Assembly (NCBI GenBank): GCA_001816655.1
Contig: MHCP01000030.1
Span: 69,623-133,622 of the forward strand
DNA from: Candidatus Woykebacteria bacterium RBG_13_40_15
GTDB taxonomy: Bacteria > Patescibacteriota > Microgenomatia > Woykebacterales > RBG-16-39-9b
Length of the DNA stretch: 64,000 nucleotides
Reading direction: 5' to 3'
The translations under genes were made by a program, and so were the position numbers. The notes under the pieces were generated by a model. It saw nothing but the letters and a program-made list of their open reading frames with translations. It had not been told where the DNA came from and did no database searches. Below, piece by piece: positions 6,287 to 61,981 of the stretch (positions are counted from its first letter, which is position 1; each line of letters begins with the position of its first letter).

Positions 6287-7266
6287 GACGTGCCTTTTCT
6301 TTTTAAAACTGTCCTTACGGCCTCCTTAATATCTTTTACACCCATCCCATACTTGTCCAGTAACTCTCTCGGATGTCCAGACTCACCAAATGTATCTTTT
6401 ACCCCAATTCTTTCAATTGGAACAGGATAGCTCTCAGCTAAAACCTCGGCTACTGCTCCACCAAGACCACCATCTATTTGGTGTTCCTCCACTGTAACAA
6501 TTGCGCCTGTTTCTTTAGCCGCTTTTGCAATTCCAAGCTTGTCAATTGGTTTCACCGTATGGTTGTTGATAACTTGCACGCTAATTCCCTCTTTTTCTAG
6601 TTCTTTTGCAGCCAAAAGGCAGTAGTAAACCAATGGGCCACAAGCAATAATGGTTACATCTTTTCCTTCTCTGAAAATTTCCGCTTGGCCGAATTTAAAA
6701 GGTGTTGCCTCTGTTGTAATTACTGCAGTTTTTCCCCGGGCAAAGCGAAGATAAAGCGGGCCTTTGTGCTCTGCAACATAAACAGCTGCTTTTCTAGTCT
6801 CGATGTAATCACACGGAACAACCACAGCCATATTCGGCAAAACTCTCGCTATCGCAATATCTTCCAAAGCTTGATGAGTTGCTCCATCACCACCAACACT
6901 GATTCCAGCGTGAGAGCCAACTATTTTTACATTCGCTTTTGAATAACAAACGCTGACTCTAATTTGATCCCAGGTTCTTCCAGGAGCAAAAACTGCCAGA
7001 GACGAGGCGAAAGGAATTTTCCCGTTTAAAGCAAGCCCTGCTGCAATTCCAATCATGTTTTGCTCGGCAATACCACACTCAAAAAACCTCTCAGGAAATT
7101 TTTCCGCGAAAGAATCTACGCGGGTTGATTGCTTAAGGTCTGCGCTCAATGCAACAACATCCGGGTTTTTCCCAGCCTCAAGTAAACCTTCCCCATAACC
7201 ATCCCGCATCGAAATTTTCTCGATGTCGGAATCAAAAATTTTTGAATTTAGGACAGTTTCCCTCAT
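6283..7266 (-). CDS. tkt: transketolase, C-terminal (pyrimidine-binding) subunit of a split transketolase
   Basis: 327 aa, FECGIAEQNMIGIAAGLA... and GGDGATHQALEDIA motifs. Overlaps fba by 4 nt. Confidence 0.85.
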   Translation of the reverse strand: MRETVLNSKIFDSDIEKISMRDGYGEGLLEAGKNPDVVALSADLKQSTRVDSFAEKFPERFFECGIAEQNMIGIAAGLALNGKIPFASSLAVFAPGRTWDQIRVSVCYSKANVKIVGSHAGISVGGDGATHQALEDIAIARVLPNMAVVVPCDYIETRKAAVYVAEHKGPLYLRFARGKTAVITTEATPFKFGQAEIFREGKDVTIIACGPLVYYCLLAAKELEKEGISVQVINNHTVKPIDKLGIAKAAKETGAIVTVEEHQIDGGLGGAVAEVLAESYPVPIERIGVKDTFGESGHPRELLDKYGMGVKDIKEAVRTVLKRKGTS

Positions 7267-7820
7267 TTATTCGCCTTGGCCGCCACATTTAGGTACCTTC
7301 TAGTCACCAAAACCAATCCAATCAGTACAACAACTAATTCCAAAAAGAGCCACCTCTTATCAACCGCGGTCATTCCCCGGCCGGCACCATAAAGGATCGT
7401 GAAAATTCCACCAAAGACAAGCCCTGGCCCTACTGGTCCCATCGCCTCACTAAGAAACAATGCCCCACCAGCAAGCGCAACAAAACCAATTATTGTAATT
7501 GGAATAAAGACGTTGCGATTATACGTCTCATTTTCTTTCTGGAAATCCTTGTTGCATTTATCCATCTCGGCTTGTTGATCTTCAGTCGGTCCGTCCTTGC
7601 CAAAGTTTCTCTGCATAATTGATTCGCAGTTTTCGCTCATTTGTGGAGAAGGGTAAAAAGCCTCTATTCCAAGGCCGACCATCAACGGAAAAACTACTGC
7701 AATCGCCAACCCAAGTCCCATTTTGACAACTGTATTCATTATGTCCTCACCTCCTTTGCTAGCGCTAAAGACTGCAATAATAATTAGTACCAGAACCCCT
7801 ATACCTGCTAAGCCTATCAT
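7263..7820 (-). CDS. small multi-pass membrane protein inserted between the two transketolase halves
   Basis: 185 aa with four hydrophobic segments. 4-nt overlap with tkt-C. Confidence 0.5.
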   Translation of the reverse strand: MIGLAGIGVLVLIIIAVFSASKGGEDIMNTVVKMGLGLAIAVVFPLMVGLGIEAFYPSPQMSENCESIMQRNFGKDGPTEDQQAEMDKCNKDFQKENETYNRNVFIPITIIGFVALAGGALFLSEAMGPVGPGLVFGGIFTILYGAGRGMTAVDKRWLFLELVVVLIGLVLVTRRYLNVAAKANK

Positions 7821-8741: not shown

Positions 8742-9402
8742 TTCCTTCGATATCTTCTTTCAAAATAGATAGGGCGTTTTTTATTTTTTCTTGGTAAGTT
8801 TCTCCTTTGATATTCTCGTTTTCAAAAATGAAACTACCAGCCACTAGTATATTTGCTCCAAGCTCGGCGCAACGCCGAGCAGTTCCTGGCTCAATTCCCC
8901 CATCAATTTCGACTATAATATCTGGTCGCATGGATCGAAGTTCCGTAATCTTTCCAAGAGTCCCATGGACAAAATGCTGTCTTGAAAAACCCGGGTACAC
9001 AGCTAGCAGCAGCACTGTATCAACTTTATCTATCACATGTTGCAGGCGAGAAACTGGAGTTTCCGGGTTTATTGAAAAACCGATTTGAATATCGTGGTGG
9101 CGCATATGATGAATTAAACCAATAGGATCTCGAGCACTTTCATAAGGCACTATAATTCTAGAAGCTCGGGCTTTAACAAAAGGATCAATCCAATCTTCAA
9201 TAAAATCTACCATTAGCTGAATCTCAAGTTTTTTTAATGTTCTAAAAGAGGTGACTTCTTTATATCCAATTGTCTGGTTTCTGGCAAACTTATTATCGAC
9301 GATATCAATCTGAACCCACTCTGTTAGAGGTTCAATTGCTTTAAATTTTTTATGGTAATCGGCGACAGTTCTACTTAAAATCGCTGGGATTATTTCTGCC
9401 AT
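8719..9402 (-). CDS. rpe: ribulose-phosphate 3-epimerase
   Basis: 227 aa, AEIIPAILS..., HHMRHHD..., EIDGGI motifs of Rpe. Confidence 0.85.
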   Translation of the reverse strand: MAEIIPAILSRTVADYHKKFKAIEPLTEWVQIDIVDNKFARNQTIGYKEVTSFRTLKKLEIQLMVDFIEDWIDPFVKARASRIIVPYESARDPIGLIHHMRHHDIQIGFSINPETPVSRLQHVIDKVDTVLLLAVYPGFSRQHFVHGTLGKITELRSMRPDIIVEIDGGIEPGTARRCAELGANILVAGSFIFENENIKGETYQEKIKNALSILKEDIEGIVPVVES

Positions 9403-9869
9403 AAAGCCTCGAATTCCTCAATTTTTTTAAGGCGTCTCATGTGCCTCTCTTCAGCTGAAAACTCTGTTGAAAGCCAAGCATCAACTATTCTTTCCGCCTC
9501 CTCGAGCGATAACCCGGGAATTGGAACCAGTGTTTTTCCACCTGAGAGACAGAGTACATTTGCATCGTTACGCTCACGACTCAATTGCGCAGTTGTCGGA
9601 GTCCAAGCTGCAATTGCTCTTACCCACCTAACCTTATTAGCAGCAATACACATACCCTCCGCTGATCCGCAAAACAAAATTGCTTTTGATTTTCCTTTTG
9701 ACTCTGCTACTTTCTCGGCTGCCACAAAAGCAAAATCCGGGTAATCGTCGTCTTTATTTAATACGTGAGCACCCAAATCCTCAACCTCGTAATTATTCTC
9801 TTTAAGATGGTTCTTAATTTTTTCTTTTAACTCAAATCCTGCGTGATCGGAAGCTATATAAATTTTCAT
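9390..9869 (-). CDS. rpiB: ribose-5-phosphate isomerase B
   Basis: 159 aa, MKIYIASDHAGFELKE and LFCGSAEGM motifs of the RpiB/LacAB family. Confidence 0.85.
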   Translation of the reverse strand: MKIYIASDHAGFELKEKIKNHLKENNYEVEDLGAHVLNKDDDYPDFAFVAAEKVAESKGKSKAILFCGSAEGMCIAANKVRWVRAIAAWTPTTAQLSRERNDANVLCLSGGKTLVPIPGLSLEEAERIVDAWLSTEFSAEERHMRRLKKIEEFEALWQK

Positions 9870-9875
9870 AGAGAA

Positions 9876-10886
9876 CTAATTTTTGATTTTCTTTGCCGCC
9901 AAAATTGCCATTTCAACTAACCTATGGGAATAGCCTATTTCATTGTCATACCAAGCAAAAACTTTGGCTAAATTACCCCCTATAACCTGAGTTAGCGGCA
10001 AATCAACAATAGAACTTTCTGTTCGACCGACAATATCAGAAGAGACAATTGGATCACTGCTCACAGCCAAAATCCCTTTCAAGCGGCCGCTTTTTGACGC
10101 TTCTTCCAAAACTTTGTTTATCTCCTGCGCGGTTGTTTCCTTTTTCAACAAAAATGTGAGATCAGAAAGAGAAGCAACCGGAGTTGGAACTCTAATTGCA
10201 ATCCCATCAAATTTTCCCTTAAGATCTGGGATCACCTCTGTGGTGGCAATTGCCGCTCCTGTTGAAGTGGGGACTATATTTTCCGCTGCAGCCCTCGCCC
10301 TTCGTAAATCTTTGTGCGGAGCATCTTGCAGATTTTGATCGGCTGTGTAACTATGAATCGTATTTAGAAAAGCTTTTTCTATCCCAAATTTTTCGTTTAT
10401 TACAGAGACAGGAGGAGCAATCGAATTAGTAGTACAGGAAGCGTTGTTGATAACAGGTTCACTTCCATCGTATTTATCGTGGTTTACCCCAATTAAAAAT
10501 GTTGGAGCGTCTTTTGCTGGTGCTGAAATAATCACTCTTTTTGCTCCAGCTTTAAGATGAGCAGAAGATTTCTCTTTGTCTGCGAATCTTCCTGTACATT
10601 CAAGTACCACATCAACACCCAAGTTTTTCCAGGGGAGAAGCGATGGGTCTTTCTCAGCATAAACGTGATATTTTTTATCATCGATAATTATGTCATTTTG
10701 ATCCGAGGAAATTTTTCGATGATAAATTCCGTAAGCAGTATCGTATTTTAAAAGATGGGCAAGCGTTTTAGCATCAGTCAAATCATTGATAGCGACAATT
10801 TCAACATCATCTGCGTGATTATCTAAAGCAATTTTGAAAGCACTTCGTCCTATTCTACCAAAGCCATTTATACCGATTTTTACCAT
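9876..10886 (-). CDS. gap: glyceraldehyde-3-phosphate dehydrogenase (type I)
   Basis: MVKIGINGFGRIGR NAD-binding start and the SCTTNS catalytic-Cys motif. RBS aaaggag lies 8 nt upstream. Confidence 0.9.
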   Translation of the reverse strand: MVKIGINGFGRIGRSAFKIALDNHADDVEIVAINDLTDAKTLAHLLKYDTAYGIYHRKISSDQNDIIIDDKKYHVYAEKDPSLLPWKNLGVDVVLECTGRFADKEKSSAHLKAGAKRVIISAPAKDAPTFLIGVNHDKYDGSEPVINNASCTTNSIAPPVSVINEKFGIEKAFLNTIHSYTADQNLQDAPHKDLRRARAAAENIVPTSTGAAIATTEVIPDLKGKFDGIAIRVPTPVASLSDLTFLLKKETTAQEINKVLEEASKSGRLKGILAVSSDPIVSSDIVGRTESSIVDLPLTQVIGGNLAKVFAWYDNEIGYSHRLVEMAILAAKKIKN

Positions 10887-11016
10887 ATTATTTCTCCTTT
10901 CTCTCGCAATAATAAGGAGGAATTGAACCTGGAGACACTGGCGTAAGCTAGTCTCGAAGGTTTCAATTCAATCCTATTGATGGCAACATTAAACATAATT
11001 CCTCCTTTGTTTTTAC
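10887..11016 (-). promoter_or_regulatory. structured gap leader with an SD-mimic, an anti-SD and the true SD (candidate translational switch)
   Basis: On the mRNA strand, AAGGAGGAATT, then 79 nt containing an inner hairpin, then AATTCCTCCTT (perfect 11-bp complement), then attattgcgagag, AAAGGAG and ATG. CTCCTT can pair either with the upstream mimic or with the real RBS. Confidence 0.35.
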
Positions 11017-11061
11017 TATATACAAGAAAGCTCCGTAAAGCAACACGAAATACGTCTTAAA

Positions 11062-11070
11062 TGGTATAAT
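11062..11070 (+). promoter_or_regulatory. extended -10 element (tggtataat) upstream of the P-type ATPase gene
   Basis: TGnTATAAT match 70 nt upstream of the ATG at 11141. Confidence 0.3.
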
Positions 11071-11140
11071 CGCGAGATTACATCTCGCACTTGTTTCTCT
11101 GGCGAGATATAATTTTCATGAAGGGTAATTTCCTGCCAGT

Positions 11141-13720
11141 ATGACAATTGAAATAACCAAACCCTGGAATTTAACTATTGATCAGGTTTTCAAGGCATTA
11201 CAGACTTCAAGTAATGGTCTTTTACACCATGAAGTTATAAGACGATTAAAGAGACATGGCTTAAATGACATTGAACGAGAGTCTAGGCGAGGCGCATTAA
11301 AAATCTTTTTGAGCCAATATAAAAACCCTCTAATTTTAATTCTAATTGTTGCCAGCATTCTTAGTTTTTTCATGGGTGATCGCCTAGGATCAGTTATTAT
11401 CCTCGTAATGCTTGCTGTTAACTCTCTGATGGGATTTTTCCAGGAGTACCGTTCGGAAAAAGCAGTTGAACTTCTTCGAAGAAAGGCTAGTCTAAAAACT
11501 ACTGTTATTCGAGAAGGTGTAGAACACAGAGTTGATGCAACTGACCTTGTACCTGGAGACATCGTTAAAGTTTTTCAGGGTAGTGTCATTCCAGCCGATT
11601 TACGACTTATTGAAGCAAAAAACTTATCAATCGACGAGTCAATGCTTACAGGTGAGTCAGAACCAGCTGAGAAAAGTAGCAATTTAATTAAAGTAAACCA
11701 GGAAATTCCGCAAGAATTGGAAAATATAGCCTTCATGGGTACAAATGTTGAAACTGGAAATGGGCTTGGGGTTGTTTTTGCCACTGCGGGAAATACCGAG
11801 TTTGGAAAGACAGCTCTTGCTCTTAAAGCAGCTGAGCCAGAAACAGAATTCCAAACCGGAACAAGGAAATTTGGAAATTTTCTTGTTATTGTCATTTTGT
11901 CCCTCGTAGTTTTCATATTTCTGGCAATGGTTTTTATCAAACCAGTATTTCTCGGGATTCCAGCTAATGTACTGGAAGCACTTCTTTTCTCGCTGGCTCT
12001 AGCAATTGGAATCACACCTGAGCTTTTACCAATTATTATTACCATCAATCTTTCTCAAGGTGCCATGATGATGTCCAAAAAGCACGTGATTGTAAAAAAG
12101 CTGATGGCAATAGAGGATATAGGTAACGCAGACGTATTATGTACCGATAAAACGGGTACTATTACAGAAGGAAAGATTTTTTTGGAAGACTACGTTAATT
12201 ACAATGGTTTGCAAGAACCAAAACTGCTACTTTATGGCCTACTTAGTAACACAGAGGTAGATCAGCCAGCAATCACTCACCCCCTTGAAACCGCCCTAGA
12301 CAGATTTACCCAAATGAGAAAGGAAATAACAGATGAAGCCAACTCGTTTAAAAAAATTGATACTCTGCCATTTGACTTCGAAAGAAAGCTCAACACCGTT
12401 CTAGCTAAAAATAAAGAAGGCTATTTTGTAATTTCAAAGGGGGCAACTGAAAAAATCTTAAAAACCTGTTCATCAATTTACATTGAAAAGAACCGGACGC
12501 TTTTGCTGGAAGGTTATCGAAAAATTTTACGAGAAAAATTTATTCAGCTAAGTAGTAGTGGTTTAAGAATACTGGCAGTCGCCTCGAAAAAAATTAAAGC
12601 AAAAAATAAACTCGCAAAGTCTGATGAGAAAAATCTCACATTTGAAGGTTTTCTTGTTTTCTCAGACCGACCGAAACACACAGCTCCTGAAACAATTAAA
12701 GACTTGGAGAATCTCGGTGTGCAAGTAAAAATATTAACTGGTGATAACGAATATGTCACAAAGCATATTTGCGATCAAGTAGGGATTGAAGTTAAAAACA
12801 TAATCACTGGGGAGTCGATCGATGTACTAACGGATAGTGAGTTTGCTGAGACAGTAGCTGAAGCAACTATTTTTGCAAAAGTCACTCCAGAGCATAAACT
12901 TCGGATTATTCAGGCTATAAAACAAGCTGGGCATACAGTTGCTTTTATGGGAGATGGCGCAAACGATGCCCCAGCTCTCAAAGCTGCTGATGTTGGTATC
13001 TCAGTTGACACTGCGCTTGATATCGCAAAAGAAGCGGCTGATATTATATTACTCCGAAAAGGCCTCGACGTGTTAATAGAAGCAGTAAAGGATGGGCGGA
13101 GGACTTTTGGTAATTCAATGAAATACATTTTCACAACTTCTAGCGCCAACTTCGGAAATATGATTAGTCTTGCTGGAGCTTCTATGTTTATCCGCTTTAT
13201 CCCACTTTTACCCGCTCAGGTAATATTACTAAACATTTTAAGCGATCTACCTTCTCTAGCAATTTCCACCGACAATGTAGACTCAGAGTATCTGAAAAAA
13301 CCAAAGCATTGGGATATCCATGAGATTAGTAGATTTATGGTTCCATTTGGCCTTATTAGCTCGATTTTCGATGTTACAACTTTTTTCCTTCTGTTTTACG
13401 CTATTAGTCATTTGGCCAACCATGAAAGTCTTTTCAGAACTGGGTGGTTTATCGAATCCCTACTTACTGAAATATTTGTGATTTATCTTATTAGAACAAG
13501 AAGGGCATTTTGGAATAGTCGTCCAAGCAGCGTGTTACTTATCGCAGGCCTATTATCATTTTTTGTCGGGGCAGCTTTCATCTATACTCCAATTTCTCAA
13601 ATATTCCAATTTGTCGCCCCGCCTGTGAATATCTTAATGATTATCGGATTAATCTTGGTAGCCTACCTCTGCCTCACCGAATTCGCAAAAAGGATTTACT
13701 ACAAAAAAGTCAGCATTTAA
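11141..13720 (+). CDS. P-type cation-transporting ATPase, MgtA-like (Mg2+ transporter family)
   Basis: 859 aa. DKTGTIT phosphorylation site, GDGANDAPALKAADVGISV hinge, TPELLP (PEMLP-like) in TM4, ten predicted TM segments. Confidence 0.8.
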   Translation: MTIEITKPWNLTIDQVFKALQTSSNGLLHHEVIRRLKRHGLNDIERESRRGALKIFLSQYKNPLILILIVASILSFFMGDRLGSVIILVMLAVNSLMGFFQEYRSEKAVELLRRKASLKTTVIREGVEHRVDATDLVPGDIVKVFQGSVIPADLRLIEAKNLSIDESMLTGESEPAEKSSNLIKVNQEIPQELENIAFMGTNVETGNGLGVVFATAGNTEFGKTALALKAAEPETEFQTGTRKFGNFLVIVILSLVVFIFLAMVFIKPVFLGIPANVLEALLFSLALAIGITPELLPIIITINLSQGAMMMSKKHVIVKKLMAIEDIGNADVLCTDKTGTITEGKIFLEDYVNYNGLQEPKLLLYGLLSNTEVDQPAITHPLETALDRFTQMRKEITDEANSFKKIDTLPFDFERKLNTVLAKNKEGYFVISKGATEKILKTCSSIYIEKNRTLLLEGYRKILREKFIQLSSSGLRILAVASKKIKAKNKLAKSDEKNLTFEGFLVFSDRPKHTAPETIKDLENLGVQVKILTGDNEYVTKHICDQVGIEVKNIITGESIDVLTDSEFAETVAEATIFAKVTPEHKLRIIQAIKQAGHTVAFMGDGANDAPALKAADVGISVDTALDIAKEAADIILLRKGLDVLIEAVKDGRRTFGNSMKYIFTTSSANFGNMISLAGASMFIRFIPLLPAQVILLNILSDLPSLAISTDNVDSEYLKKPKHWDIHEISRFMVPFGLISSIFDVTTFFLLFYAISHLANHESLFRTGWFIESLLTEIFVIYLIRTRRAFWNSRPSSVLLIAGLLSFFVGAAFIYTPISQIFQFVAPPVNILMIIGLILVAYLCLTEFAKRIYYKKVSI

Positions 13721-61250: not shown

Positions 61251-61443
61251 TTTATTATATCAAGGAAATGGAAACAAATTTCAAACCAGCTTCCAACTTG
61301 AAAAACCTATAGCATAATGGTATACTACATCCAACATAACCGCCAAACTAGCGGAAAACGTTAGACTAACGAGGAGGAAACAAGAGAAATGTCGCCAGTA
61401 CACAACGACCCGTTTCTAGGTTGGTGGCTCTGGAAACTAGAGC

Positions 61444-61981
61444 CATGGCAGGCTGGCCTGGTAGCGTTGGCGTAGTCGGTCTTTGGTTCGTCGAAGTCCT
61501 CAGACGCAGGTTCACGACACCGGACTTACCATCTTATGGGCTGTCCATTTTCAAGTGGCACTCTAACTACCTGGGGTACCCTTTTCTGGCTGTGGTAGTA
61601 GGCTCGCTAGCCTTCTACTTCAAAGAGGTAAGCACAGCAACCCCAATAAGCGGGTGGTTGTTCCCAGTCTTCTTCGTGTTGGCTCTCGCGTCGGCTGCTC
61701 TGTTCATCCGGTGGGAGGACCAGAAGAACGGAATCCGCCCTTTCACGAAGCTGAACGCCAATCGGGTTTACAACGCCCTGTTCTGGTTCGCGCCAATAGT
61801 GTACGTACTCATCACGGGGCTCGCGGTACTACTCGGTTATCGGGAAATCCCAAGCGTGGTTGCGCTCGTCGTAGTGCTCTGCCTAGCAATCTTCGCCGGA
61901 ACCCTACTTCTCGATGGCACTGGGTGGAACCCACTACGGGATGAAGTCAAACGCTCGTACCCGAAGTGGAAACTGGATTGA
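61444..61981 (+). CDS. multi-pass membrane protein on a GC-rich islet
   Basis: Five hydrophobic helices. The ORF track begins at a TTG at 61421. A Trp-rich 28-aa mini-ORF (61389..61475) overlaps the start. Confidence 0.4.

What the first reader, a model, noticed from the sequence alone, without database searches (positions are those of the whole stretch)
10887..11016. The gap leader contains an SD-mimic, an anti-SD and the true SD: a candidate translational switch controlling the glycolysis/PPP operon
On the gap mRNA strand, an 11-nt AAGGAGGAATT is perfectly complementary to AATTCCTCCTT 79 nt downstream, and the intervening loop holds its own hairpin (GAACCTGGAGAC…GTCTCGAAGGTTTC). The same anti-SD (CTCCTT) lies 14 nt upstream of the true RBS AAAGGAG and can pair with it instead, giving a 6-bp RBS-sequestering hairpin. 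Mutually exclusive pairings around an RBS are how riboswitch expression platforms and RNA thermometers work. This element would gate translation of gap and possibly the downstream genes.
Basis: seen in the sequence. Interest (0 to 1): 0.55.

Follow-up and report, generated by a model that had tools for sequence, protein, structure and literature searches.

The report
Palindromic insertion scar in gap leader
The proposed RNA switch in front of the glycolysis gene gap is best read as the scar of a small hairpin-forming insertion element that split off the gene's old ribosome-binding site and start, leaving a short upstream reading frame that probably hands ribosomes on to the real start.

Summary
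The 11-nt complement, the inner hairpin and the CUCCUU upstream of the gap RBS are all there. In G000 the CUCCUU:AAGGAG pairing is the predicted dominant state (P about 0.75-0.8).

Comparison with relatives changes what the three parts are:
- **"SD mimic":** this is the ancestral gap RBS. It sits behind the gap promoter and is followed by a decayed copy of gap codons 1-7 (18 of 21 nt identical to a relative's real gap start).
- **Upstream ORF:** that copy now opens a 38-codon ORF whose stop overlaps the gap AUG. It is open in 5 of 6 homologous leaders.
- **"Anti-SD":** this is the right arm of a roughly 60-nt palindromic hairpin, whose conserved partner is its own left arm. The same hairpin sits at fpg and rplT 3' ends, behind another gene's stop, and in an intergenic spacer in relatives and metagenomes.

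The switch as proposed is not conserved: anti-SD:SD pairing is predicted in only 1 of 6 leaders. A different helix, linker against gap codons 3-6, covaries instead.

Most likely the leader is an insertion scar with a duplicated start, and gap translation is coupled to the upstream ORF. Coupling is inferred, not shown. Interest is moderate.

The parts
11015..11043 (-). Predicted gap promoter: -35 TTGCTT (11043-11038), 17-nt spacer, -10 TATAGT (11020-11015)
   Evidence: Read. The same TTGC(G/T)T-N17-TATA(G/T)T arrangement lies directly upstream of gap, or of the relic start, in relatives. The consensus scan did not list it. The transcription start is inferred, not measured.
10997..11007 (-). 'SD mimic' AAGGAGGAATT, which is the ancestral gap RBS and now the RBS of the upstream ORF
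   Evidence: An ATG follows at once. The segment is collinear with the promoter-RBS-ATG of element-free relatives such as G009.
10976..10996 (-). Relic copy of gap codons 1-7 (T_L; encodes MFNVAIN)
   Evidence: 18 of 21 nt match the real gap start of G009, and 13 of 21 match G000's own start. Among 3000 random window 21-mers, the best match to the 13 element-free starts reached at most 14.
10880..10996 (-). Upstream ORF of 38 codons; its stop TAA (10882-10880) overlaps the gap ATG
   Evidence: The frame has 0 stops while the other two frames have 3 each. The frame is open in 5 of 6 homologous leaders and in the G001 remnant.
10915..10975 (-). Core palindromic element. Left arm AGGATTGAATTGAA (10975-10962), variable inner hairpin (GAGAC 10955-10951 with GTCTC 10936-10932), right arm TTCAATTCCTCCT (10927-10915)
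   Evidence: It folds to one long hairpin: -22.0 kcal/mol and z -4.5 for the 74-nt stretch 10908-10981. Model R1 finds 1 copy in G000, 4 in G005 and 1 in G007. Further copies are in metagenome contigs.
10914..10920 (-). 'Anti-SD' CCTCCTT, which is the 3' part of the element's right arm
   Evidence: Invariant in all 10 aligned copies, though they were found with a pattern that contains it. It pairs with the left arm's AGGA in the consensus structure, and with the gap SD in G000's predicted ensemble.
10901..10913 (-). Linker ATTATTGCGAGAG between the element and the gap RBS
   Evidence: In 5 of 6 leaders its 9 nt pair with gap codons 3-6, and 3 pairs show compensatory changes. The only 2 unpaired cells out of 54 are both in G000.
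10894..10900 (-). Working gap RBS AAAGGAG, 7 nt before the ATG; the right-hand copy of the duplicated start region
   Evidence: Predicted paired with CUCCUU at P 0.83 in G000 and 0.00 in the 5 other leaders.
9876..10886 (-). gap (glyceraldehyde-3-phosphate dehydrogenase, 336 aa), first gene of gap-rpiB-rpe-tktN-ORF185-tktC
   Evidence: Pfam Gp_dh_N and Gp_dh_C match. The downstream ORFs match LacAB_rpiB, Ribul_P_3_epim, Transketolase_N, and Transket_pyr with Transketolase_C.

Best explanation
The gap leader is the scar of a small palindromic insertion element. The element has a core of about 60 nt plus a short right-hand linker. It sits where codon 7 of an ancestral gap gene ended.

The ancestral promoter, RBS and first seven codons stayed on its left. 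That RBS is the 'SD mimic'. A second copy of RBS, ATG and codons 1-7 on its right keeps gap intact.

The old start now opens a 38-codon upstream ORF. It reads through the hairpin and stops on the gap AUG. The 'anti-SD' is simply the right arm of the hairpin.

**Likely mechanism (inferred).** The hairpin's 3' side and linker fold onto the gap initiation region. In G000 this is CUCCUU on the RBS; in the relatives it is the linker on codons 3-6. Ribosomes that start at the strong old RBS melt these helices and terminate on the gap AUG. Gap translation is therefore largely coupled to the upstream ORF.

This is constitutive plumbing left by an insertion, not a sensor.

My confidence in the anatomy (insertion, duplicated start, dispersed element family) is about 0.85. 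My confidence in the coupling is about 0.45.
For: **Duplicated start**
- The left copies match real gap starts of element-free relatives at 18-19 of 21 nt. The best match of 3000 random 21-mers reached at most 14.
- The left copy sits right behind the promoter and RBS, exactly where 13 of 17 family genomes have their gap start.

**Dispersed element**
- All 11 copies examined fold into the same long hairpin, with z from -1.3 to -5.2. For 9 of 11, 0 of 200 shuffles folded as well.
- G005 has 4 copies: at gap, in an intergenic spacer, antisense behind the rplT stop, and behind the stop of a 251-aa gene.
- Metagenome contigs carry it antisense directly behind fpg stop codons. There an 18-nt flank repeat again surrounds it, and the old C-terminus is left beyond it.
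- G000's rplT end is an empty site.
- G001 keeps the duplicated start with the hairpin largely deleted.

**Upstream ORF**
- The ATG lies at -110, or at -143 with an in-frame 33-nt insert.
- It has 0 stops in 5 of 6 leaders and in G001, against 2-5 stops in each other frame. The chance of an open frame after shuffling is 0.04-0.08 per leader.
- Its stop always overlaps the gap ATG.

**Masking of the gap start**
- In G000 the SD is paired with CUCCUU at P 0.74-0.83.
- The helix between linker and gap codons 3-6 is paired in 52 of 54 cells and has 3 covarying pairs. Slid controls reach only 33-46%.
Against: - **No expression data.** No RNA run was listed, and the transcription start is only predicted.
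- **gap can start by itself.** It has its own good RBS, which is predicted mostly free in 3 of the 5 other leaders and about half free in L057 and L059 (unpaired 0.50-0.93).
- **One leader lacks the ORF.** L058 has lost the upstream ATG and frame, yet keeps the hairpin.
- **Weak evidence for mobility.** G000 has only one copy and no Y1 transposase. No insertion sequence with these ends exists in G000, G005 or G007.
- **Atypical flank repeats.** They are 18 to about 35 nt long, which is not typical of transposase target duplications. They are unclear at 3 of the non-gap copies.
- **More conserved than a scar should be.** The element is 55-67 of 68 nt identical between leaders, although third codon positions of gap are only 37-44% identical. 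The adjacent relic start has diverged far more. This suggests either a sequence-specific function or recent lateral spread.
- **Patchy distribution.** Element-bearing gap genes are scattered on a poorly resolved Gap tree.
Confidence: 0.6

Rival explanations
1. The leader is a regulated three-way RNA switch, like a riboswitch or an RNA thermometer. The anti-SD pairs either with the SD mimic (gap on) or with the true SD (gap off), and a signal sets the balance.
For: - All three segments are mutually complementary.
- The SD-masked state dominates in G000, and the alternative lies only about 3 kcal/mol above it.
- In L057, L058 and L059 the anti-SD is predicted to pair with the upstream SD (P 0.58-0.87). 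Competition between partners is therefore real.
- The element is much better conserved than neutral sites.
Against: - There is no conserved partner choice. SD masking is predicted in 1 of 6 leaders, and G005 has no upstream SD.
- The anti-SD:SD helix shows no covariation.
- The upstream SD has an ATG and an open frame behind it, so ribosomes would occupy it.
- The same hairpin occurs antisense at fpg and rplT ends and in an intergenic spacer.
- No Rfam match was found at E up to 10.
- There is no multi-helix pocket that could bind a ligand. The structure is a single long hairpin.
Confidence: 0.12
2. The leader is a neutral scar with no effect on expression. gap is translated from its own RBS. 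The upstream ORF is open only because it is inherited and young, and the hairpin is tolerated junk.
For: - gap has a canonical RBS with 7-nt spacing.
- That RBS is predicted mostly unpaired in 3 of the 5 other leaders and about half unpaired in 2 (0.50-0.93).
- L058 has lost the upstream ORF.
- G001 has lost most of the hairpin.
- 13 of 17 family genomes do without the element.
Against: - The element is 81-99% identical between lineages whose synonymous sites are saturated, while the neighbouring relic start has decayed.
- Compensatory changes keep both the linker-to-codon helix and the inner stems paired.
- The upstream frame stays open across many substitutions and a 33-nt insert.
Confidence: 0.18
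3. The hairpin followed by UUAUUAUU acts as a weak intrinsic terminator in either orientation. At gap it would form a translation-dependent transcription attenuator. At fpg and rplT it would be an ordinary terminator.
For: - A long stable hairpin is followed by a U-rich tail on both strands (sequences).
- Four copies in three settings sit directly behind stop codons: two or three fpg genes, rplT, and the 251-aa gene.
- A ribosome on the upstream ORF would prevent the hairpin from forming (inference).
Against: - The stem is A+U-rich, the tail is interrupted by A, and the terminator scan did not list it.
- The upstream ORF has no run of regulatory codons.
- There are no transcript data.
Confidence: 0.08

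Closest known systems
REP/REPIN elements mobilised by RAYT (IS200-like Y1) transposases. I saw only the listing abstracts of PMC3116915 and PMC3337134.
   Same: - It is a short non-coding palindrome that folds into a long hairpin.
- It has conserved arms and a variable middle.
- It sits at gene boundaries.
- The copies in one genome are related but not identical.
- One G005 copy lies about 0.6 kb from an IS200-like Y1 transposase gene.
   Different: - Copy number is very low: 1 to 4 per genome.
- G000 has no Y1 transposase. Across the family, presence of Y1_Tnp (8 of 17 genomes) does not follow the element.
- The transposase gene's own flanks share only an 8-nt word with the element.
- The element inserts into the ends of coding sequences, with long flank repeats.
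Bacterial MITEs and palindromic elements that land in or next to genes, such as Correia elements of Neisseria and Rickettsia palindromic elements. These are recalled, not read here.
   Same: - It is small and has inverted-repeat ends.
- It carries an outward-facing signal: TAAGGAGG (a stop followed by an SD) on one strand.
- It can become part of a reading frame. L20 of G005 runs 9-10 codons into it, and the gap upstream ORF reads through it.
   Different: - No parent insertion sequence with the same ends is present in G000, G005 or G007.
- The flank repeats are 18 to about 35 nt long rather than a few nt.
- At gap the insertion did not become part of the protein. A duplicated start bypasses it.
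Translational coupling by unmasking, in which translation of an upstream cistron opens a structure over the next start. Examples are rpmI-rplT in the E. coli IF3 operon and the MS2 coat-replicase pair. These are recalled.
   Same: - A well-initiated upstream frame ends on the next AUG (ATGnTAA or ATGA).
- A predicted helix covers the downstream RBS or its first codons.
- The upstream frame is kept open in relatives.
   Different: - The upstream cistron here is a gene fragment fused to a mobile-element hairpin, not a gene.
- Coupling has not been measured.
Riboswitch expression platforms and RNA thermometers
   Same: Alternative pairings exist around an RBS. In G000 the SD is predicted to be masked by a CU-rich strand.
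   Different: - There is no aptamer and no Rfam match.
- The masking helix is not conserved.
- The element also occurs in unrelated settings and in antisense orientation.

Membership tests
Riboswitch | A conserved ligand-binding aptamer: several helices or a junction supported by covariation, or a match to a curated family | tested here: not met
   No Rfam match over 9000-13000 at E up to 10. The consensus structure is a single long hairpin without a junction.
Riboswitch | Consistent cis position, in sense orientation, ahead of genes of one pathway | tested here: not met
   Besides gap, copies lie antisense behind fpg and rplT, behind the stop of a 251-aa gene, and in an intergenic spacer.
Riboswitch / RNA thermometer | A conserved helix that masks the RBS and has a mutually exclusive alternative | tested here: inconclusive
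   Masking is predicted in G000 (P 0.74-0.83) but at 0.00 in the 5 other leaders. The helix does not covary. Response to temperature or ligand cannot be tested here.
MITE | Short, non-coding, with terminal inverted repeats | tested here: met
   The core is about 60 nt. The arms AGGATTGAATTGAA and TTCAATTCCTCCT pair as 4+8 bp with a small internal loop.
MITE | Several dispersed copies in a genome | tested here: inconclusive
   Four copies in G005, but a single copy in G000 and in G007.
MITE | A short target-site duplication of fixed length | tested here: not met
   The flank repeats are long and unequal: about 21-35 nt at gap and 18 nt at fpg. They are unclear at the rplT, 251-aa-gene and intergenic copies.
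MITE | A parent insertion sequence with the same ends | tested here: not met
   Single-arm searches with up to 2 mismatches in G000, G005 and G007 found only the paired copies plus hits at control level. Other genomes were not searched for single arms.
REPIN-RAYT system | A single-copy RAYT (Y1 transposase) in the same genome, flanked by the same REP sequence | tested here: not met
   PF01797 finds 0 matches in G000, 1 in G005 and 2 in G007, and matches in 8 of 17 family genomes without relation to the element. The flanks of the G005 gene carry AGGTTCAACCT, not the element arms.
Translationally coupled upstream ORF | The upstream frame has its own RBS and start, and its stop overlaps or abuts the downstream start | tested here: met
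   GGAGG, 4 nt, then ATG at 10996. The stop TAA at 10882-10880 lies within ATGgTAA. The same geometry is seen in 5 of 6 leaders.
Translationally coupled upstream ORF | The downstream initiation region is masked by structure that the upstream ribosome must open | tested here: inconclusive
   In silico only. In G000 the SD is masked. The linker-to-codons-3-6 helix covaries in the relatives, yet their SDs are predicted 50-93% free.
Translationally coupled upstream ORF | Downstream expression depends on upstream translation | not testable with these tools
   This needs reporter fusions or ribosome profiling. No RNA run was listed.
Leader-peptide transcription attenuator | A G+C-rich terminator with a U tract, plus regulatory codons in the leader peptide | tested here: not met
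   The terminator scan did not list the hairpin. The tail is UUAUUAUU. The 38-residue peptide has no codon run.

The most novel reading that the evidence does not exclude
The hairpin belongs to an undescribed family of tiny palindromic elements in small (about 1 Mb) bacterial genomes. These elements settle in the very ends of genes and survive because the interrupted gene end is regenerated beside them. At gap this is a new RBS plus start; at fpg and rplT it is a new C-terminus plus stop.

At gap the element would since have been taken over by the host. The upstream ORF, the hairpin and the covarying linker-to-codon helix would together set how much Gap and pentose-phosphate enzyme is made. 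That would explain why the element is kept almost unchanged across genera whose synonymous sites are saturated.
Probability: 0.25. Interest if true: 0.6.

Novelty: new variant of a known kind. Interest (0 to 1): 0.42.

Why it matters
- **How an essential gene survives a hit.** The case shows, step by step, how an essential gene in a very compact genome can survive an insertion into its first codons. A duplicated RBS and start rescues the gene. The old start becomes an upstream ORF, and the insertion's hairpin becomes part of the leader.
- **A warning for annotation.** A pattern of "SD, anti-SD, SD" around a start codon can be a by-product of a mobile palindrome that happens to carry CCUCC, rather than a sensor.
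- **If the takeover reading is right.** It would be a documented route from selfish hairpin to translational control of central carbon metabolism, in bacteria that cannot yet be grown.
- **A further element family.** It would add a gene-end-targeting element family with unusually long flank repeats.

Tried and rejected
- **Known RNA family.** Rfam gave nothing at the site, even at E up to 10. It also gave nothing for the different gap leaders of G012, G015 and G001.
- **tRNA or tmRNA.** None was found in 10000-12000. The GGTTCAATTCC word looks like a T-arm, but the G005 intergenic copy breaks that stem.
- **High-copy repeat.** Rejected. The exact pattern occurs in 3 of 401 genomes of the class. 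Model R1 matched in 5 of 101 relatives, and two of those (G011, G086) are weak matches without the arms.
- **Chance matches set aside.** Of the 11 metagenome loci I set aside L052, L055 and L056. Of the 8 genome-contig loci I set aside L063, L065, L066, L068 and L069. All lack the ATAG and TTAT borders. L054 and L060 repeat the L051 copies, as far as the flanks shown go.
- **Functional peptide from the upstream ORF.** Unlikely. G000 and G005 differ at 8 nt inside the hairpin, mostly at codon positions 1 and 2. Several of these changes are compensatory for the stem (read). The element is also not translated in that frame elsewhere.
- **Ribosomal bypassing of the T4 gene 60 kind.** Take-off and landing would both be at AAT. 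Rejected because no stop follows the take-off codon, and a full RBS plus ATG precedes the landing site.
- **Integron attC site.** The arms do not fit the core-site consensus as I recall it. This was not tested with a model.
- **Co-transfer of the gap 5' end with the element.** Weak. The first 60 nt of gap are about 44 of 60 identical between any two family members. Only G000-G005 (53) and L057-L059 (54) stand out.
- **Gap tree.** It is too poorly resolved to tell one old insertion with losses from lateral spread. G004 was left out because its fragment is under 250 aa.
- **Expression data.** No RNA holder was listed.
- **Literature.** One search for MITEs together with Patescibacteria returned two unrelated papers. 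I did not establish the lineage of G000. The record titles of two same-family genomes name unrelated groups.
- **Unpublished genome.** G086 is flagged as unpublished.

Full report
**Setting**

The finding lies between two divergent genes. gap (9876-10886, minus strand) heads a run of gap, rpiB, rpe, transketolase N-half, an ORF of 185 aa without a Pfam match, and transketolase C-half. A P-type ATPase gene starts at 11141 on the plus strand. The window belongs to a 982,788-base assembly, G000, of 36 contigs and 40.7% G+C. Its family relatives are 0.6-1.1 Mb.

**The observation**

On the gap strand, AAGGAGGAATT (11007-10997) is the exact complement of AATTCCTCCTT (10924-10914). The 72 nt between them hold a hairpin of their own. 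CTCCTT lies 13 nt before the gap RBS AAAGGAG (10900-10894).

An 11-nt perfect inverted repeat is not unusual here. I counted 9 such 11-mer pairs in the window, against 4.4 expected. The whole leader folds only moderately better than shuffles (z -2.33). The 74-nt core hairpin, however, is strongly non-random (-22.0 kcal/mol, z -4.5, 0 of 200 shuffles).

Rfam has nothing at this place, and there is no tRNA.

An ATG at 10996 follows the 'SD mimic' directly. The frame it opens runs 38 codons and ends with a TAA that overlaps the gap ATG (ATGgTAA).

Its first seven codons encode MFNVAIN. That is a decayed copy of the Gap N-terminus, which reads M-x-K-V/I-A/G-I-N in all 17 family genomes.
- The 21-nt relic matches the real gap start of the element-free relative G009 at 18 of 21 positions.
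- It matches G000's own start at 13 of 21.
- Among 3000 random 21-mers, the best match to any element-free start reached at most 14.

The relic sits just behind a TTGCTT-N17-TATAGT promoter and the strong RBS. This is exactly the arrangement that element-free relatives have in front of their real gap gene. So the 'SD mimic' is the ancestral gap RBS, and the working RBS plus ATG further down is a second copy.

**The piece in between**

I took the 320 nt upstream of gap in all 17 family genomes.
- G000, G005 and G007 share the whole arrangement.
- G001 keeps the duplicated start, but most of the hairpin is deleted.
- The other 13 have nothing of it.

An exact-pattern scan found the hairpin in 3 of 401 genomes of the class. 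It also found three further gap-linked copies on metagenome contigs (L058, L059, L061).

The same hairpin also occurs away from gap.
- Metagenome contigs (L051 with two copies, L053) carry it antisense directly behind the stop codons of fpg genes (Pfam Fapy_DNA_glyco, H2TH and the zinc finger).
- Covariance model R1 found four copies in G005:
  - at gap;
  - in the spacer between an AsnC-like and a NIF3-like gene;
  - antisense behind rplT;
  - behind the stop of a 251-aa gene, with arms changed in a compensating way (GAATTAAA/TTTAATTC).
- At fpg in L053, an 18-nt stretch of the gene's zinc-finger end is repeated on both sides of the element. The working gene ends in new codons and a TAA supplied by the element's CCTCCTTA. 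The old C-terminus (...CQRQ stop) is stranded on the far side.
- G005's L20 likewise reads 9-10 codons into the element and stops at that TAA. G000's rplT shows the empty site.

The 'anti-SD' is thus the right arm of a dispersed palindromic element. Its conserved partner is its own left arm: AGGA with UCCU, then GAAUUGAA with UUCAAUUC, then a variable inner hairpin.

No insertion sequence with these ends exists in G000, G005 or G007. G000 has no Y1 transposase, and Y1 genes in the family (8 of 17 genomes) do not follow the element. How it moves is therefore open. The long flank repeats do not fit ordinary target duplications.

**Testing the proposed switch**

I folded all six gap-linked leaders from the predicted transcription start.
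- The gap SD is paired with the anti-SD only in G000 (0.83). In the other five the value is 0.00.
- The preferred partner of the anti-SD is the upstream SD in L057, L058 and L059 (0.58-0.87).
- It is the element's own left arm in L062 (the G005 copy) and L061 (0.64-0.77).
- G005 has no upstream SD at all.

Constrained folding of G000 gives the SD-masked state P 0.74-0.80. It rises to 0.12 only if the transcript began at 11030. The anti-SD:SD helix shows no covariation.

A different helix does covary. Nine nucleotides of the linker just after CCUCC pair with gap codons 3-6.
- 52 of 54 cells are paired.
- 3 pairs carry compensatory changes.
- Slid controls reach only 33-46%.
- Both unpaired cells are in G000.

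With six related sequences this is suggestive, not proof. It could also be a by-product of how the element inserts, because the linker at fpg is likewise complementary to the adjacent gene end (sequences).

**The upstream ORF**

In 5 of 6 leaders the ATG lies at -110, or at -143 in G007 where a 33-nt double hairpin is inserted in frame. The frame has no stop until it overlaps the gap ATG. The other two frames carry 2-5 stops each. Shuffled leaders are open in only 4-8% of trials.

The G001 remnant is open too. L058 has lost both the ATG and the frame. The copies are related, so these are not independent trials.

**Conservation**

Third codon positions of gap are 37-44% identical between the element-bearing genomes, which means they are saturated. 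The element, by contrast, is 55-67 of 68 nt identical. Its 35-nt middle is 35 of 35 identical between L057 and L061. Identity peaks from about -105 to +45 relative to the gap ATG.

The relic start next to it has diverged much more (read). The first 60 nt of gap are conserved in all family members, so they add little. The Gap tree scatters the element-bearing genes and is poorly resolved.

Either the element is under sequence-level constraint, or it has spread laterally in recent times. I cannot tell which.

**Reading**

Shown:
- the duplicated start;
- the dispersed hairpin family;
- the conserved open upstream frame that ends on the gap AUG;
- the predicted masking in G000;
- the covarying linker helix.

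Inferred:
- Ribosomes starting at the old RBS open these helices and hand over to the gap AUG, which is translational coupling.
- The arrangement is constitutive rather than sensing.

Rivals are a regulated switch (about 0.12), a neutral scar (about 0.18) and a translation-dependent attenuator (about 0.08).

**Limits**

Literature was seen only as search listings.

Noticed in passing
window 11061-11116 (reads as a promoter on the + strand), plus 10 other places in G000: A roughly 50-nt multi-copy module lies here. Its 23-nt 3' part, TTGTTTCTCTnGCGAGATATAAT, occurs 11 times in G000. In 8 of the 11, an ORF start follows only 3-27 nt after TATAAT; these include an MreB-like gene, a UppS-like gene and this window's P-type ATPase. 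One copy is followed by what looks like a tRNA gene (read by eye). The module is about 90-94% identical across genera of the family. It looks like a lineage-specific promoter that gives leaderless or short-leader mRNAs. It serves the divergent ATPase gene, not gap. The terminator-like hairpin at 11072-11088 listed is part of it.
   Followed up: partly
L035 (G012), L005 (G015), L037 (G001): about 110 nt upstream of gap: Three relatives share a different structured gap leader: AGCACGC...GCGTGCTGCG, then a CCAC...GTGG hairpin just before the RBS. It has no Rfam match. G001 carries this leader together with the duplicated gap start.
   Followed up: partly
L057/L039 (G007) and L058, between the relic gap codon 7 and the hairpin: A 33-nt insert forms two small hairpins, AGGACGGAGTCCT and GAGCAAC..GTTGCTC. 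One A-T to G-C compensatory change separates the two copies. The insert is in frame and stop-free in G007. It is a second, nested palindromic insertion in the same leader.
   Followed up: no
window 7263-7820 (-): An ORF of 185 aa without any Pfam match sits between the N-terminal and C-terminal halves of a split transketolase.
   Followed up: no
L047/L078 (G005:C2), about 0.6 kb from the intergenic copy of the element: An IS200-like Y1 transposase gene (197 aa, PF01797) is flanked on both sides by AGGTTCAACCT. That motif shares the 8-nt word AGGTTCAA with the right side of the gap-linked copies of the hairpin (not with the nearby intergenic copy).
   Followed up: partly
G000 contig C25 near 29,700 and 65,170; contig C36 near 9,260: Half-copies of the promoter-like module abut a second repeat (GAAAGCTAAAGCTTTCTGCGTCGCA...). 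At C25 near 29,700 this repeat is tandem with a 35-nt period.
   Followed up: no
L062/L064 and L067 (record titles): Two genomes that the genome collection places in the same family as G000 carry record titles naming unrelated groups: one a Gammaproteobacteria bacterium, the other a Nanoarchaeia archaeon. The deposited labels are therefore unreliable for this lineage.
   Followed up: no
G000 contig C25 about 61,400-61,540, and L076 (G005), downstream of rplT: A conserved TTGACA-N17-TATAAT promoter is followed by a conserved hairpin (GGGAGCTCATGTAGGGCAGGCGTGAGCTTCCC) between rplT and pheS in both genomes. It may be a pheS leader.
   Followed up: no
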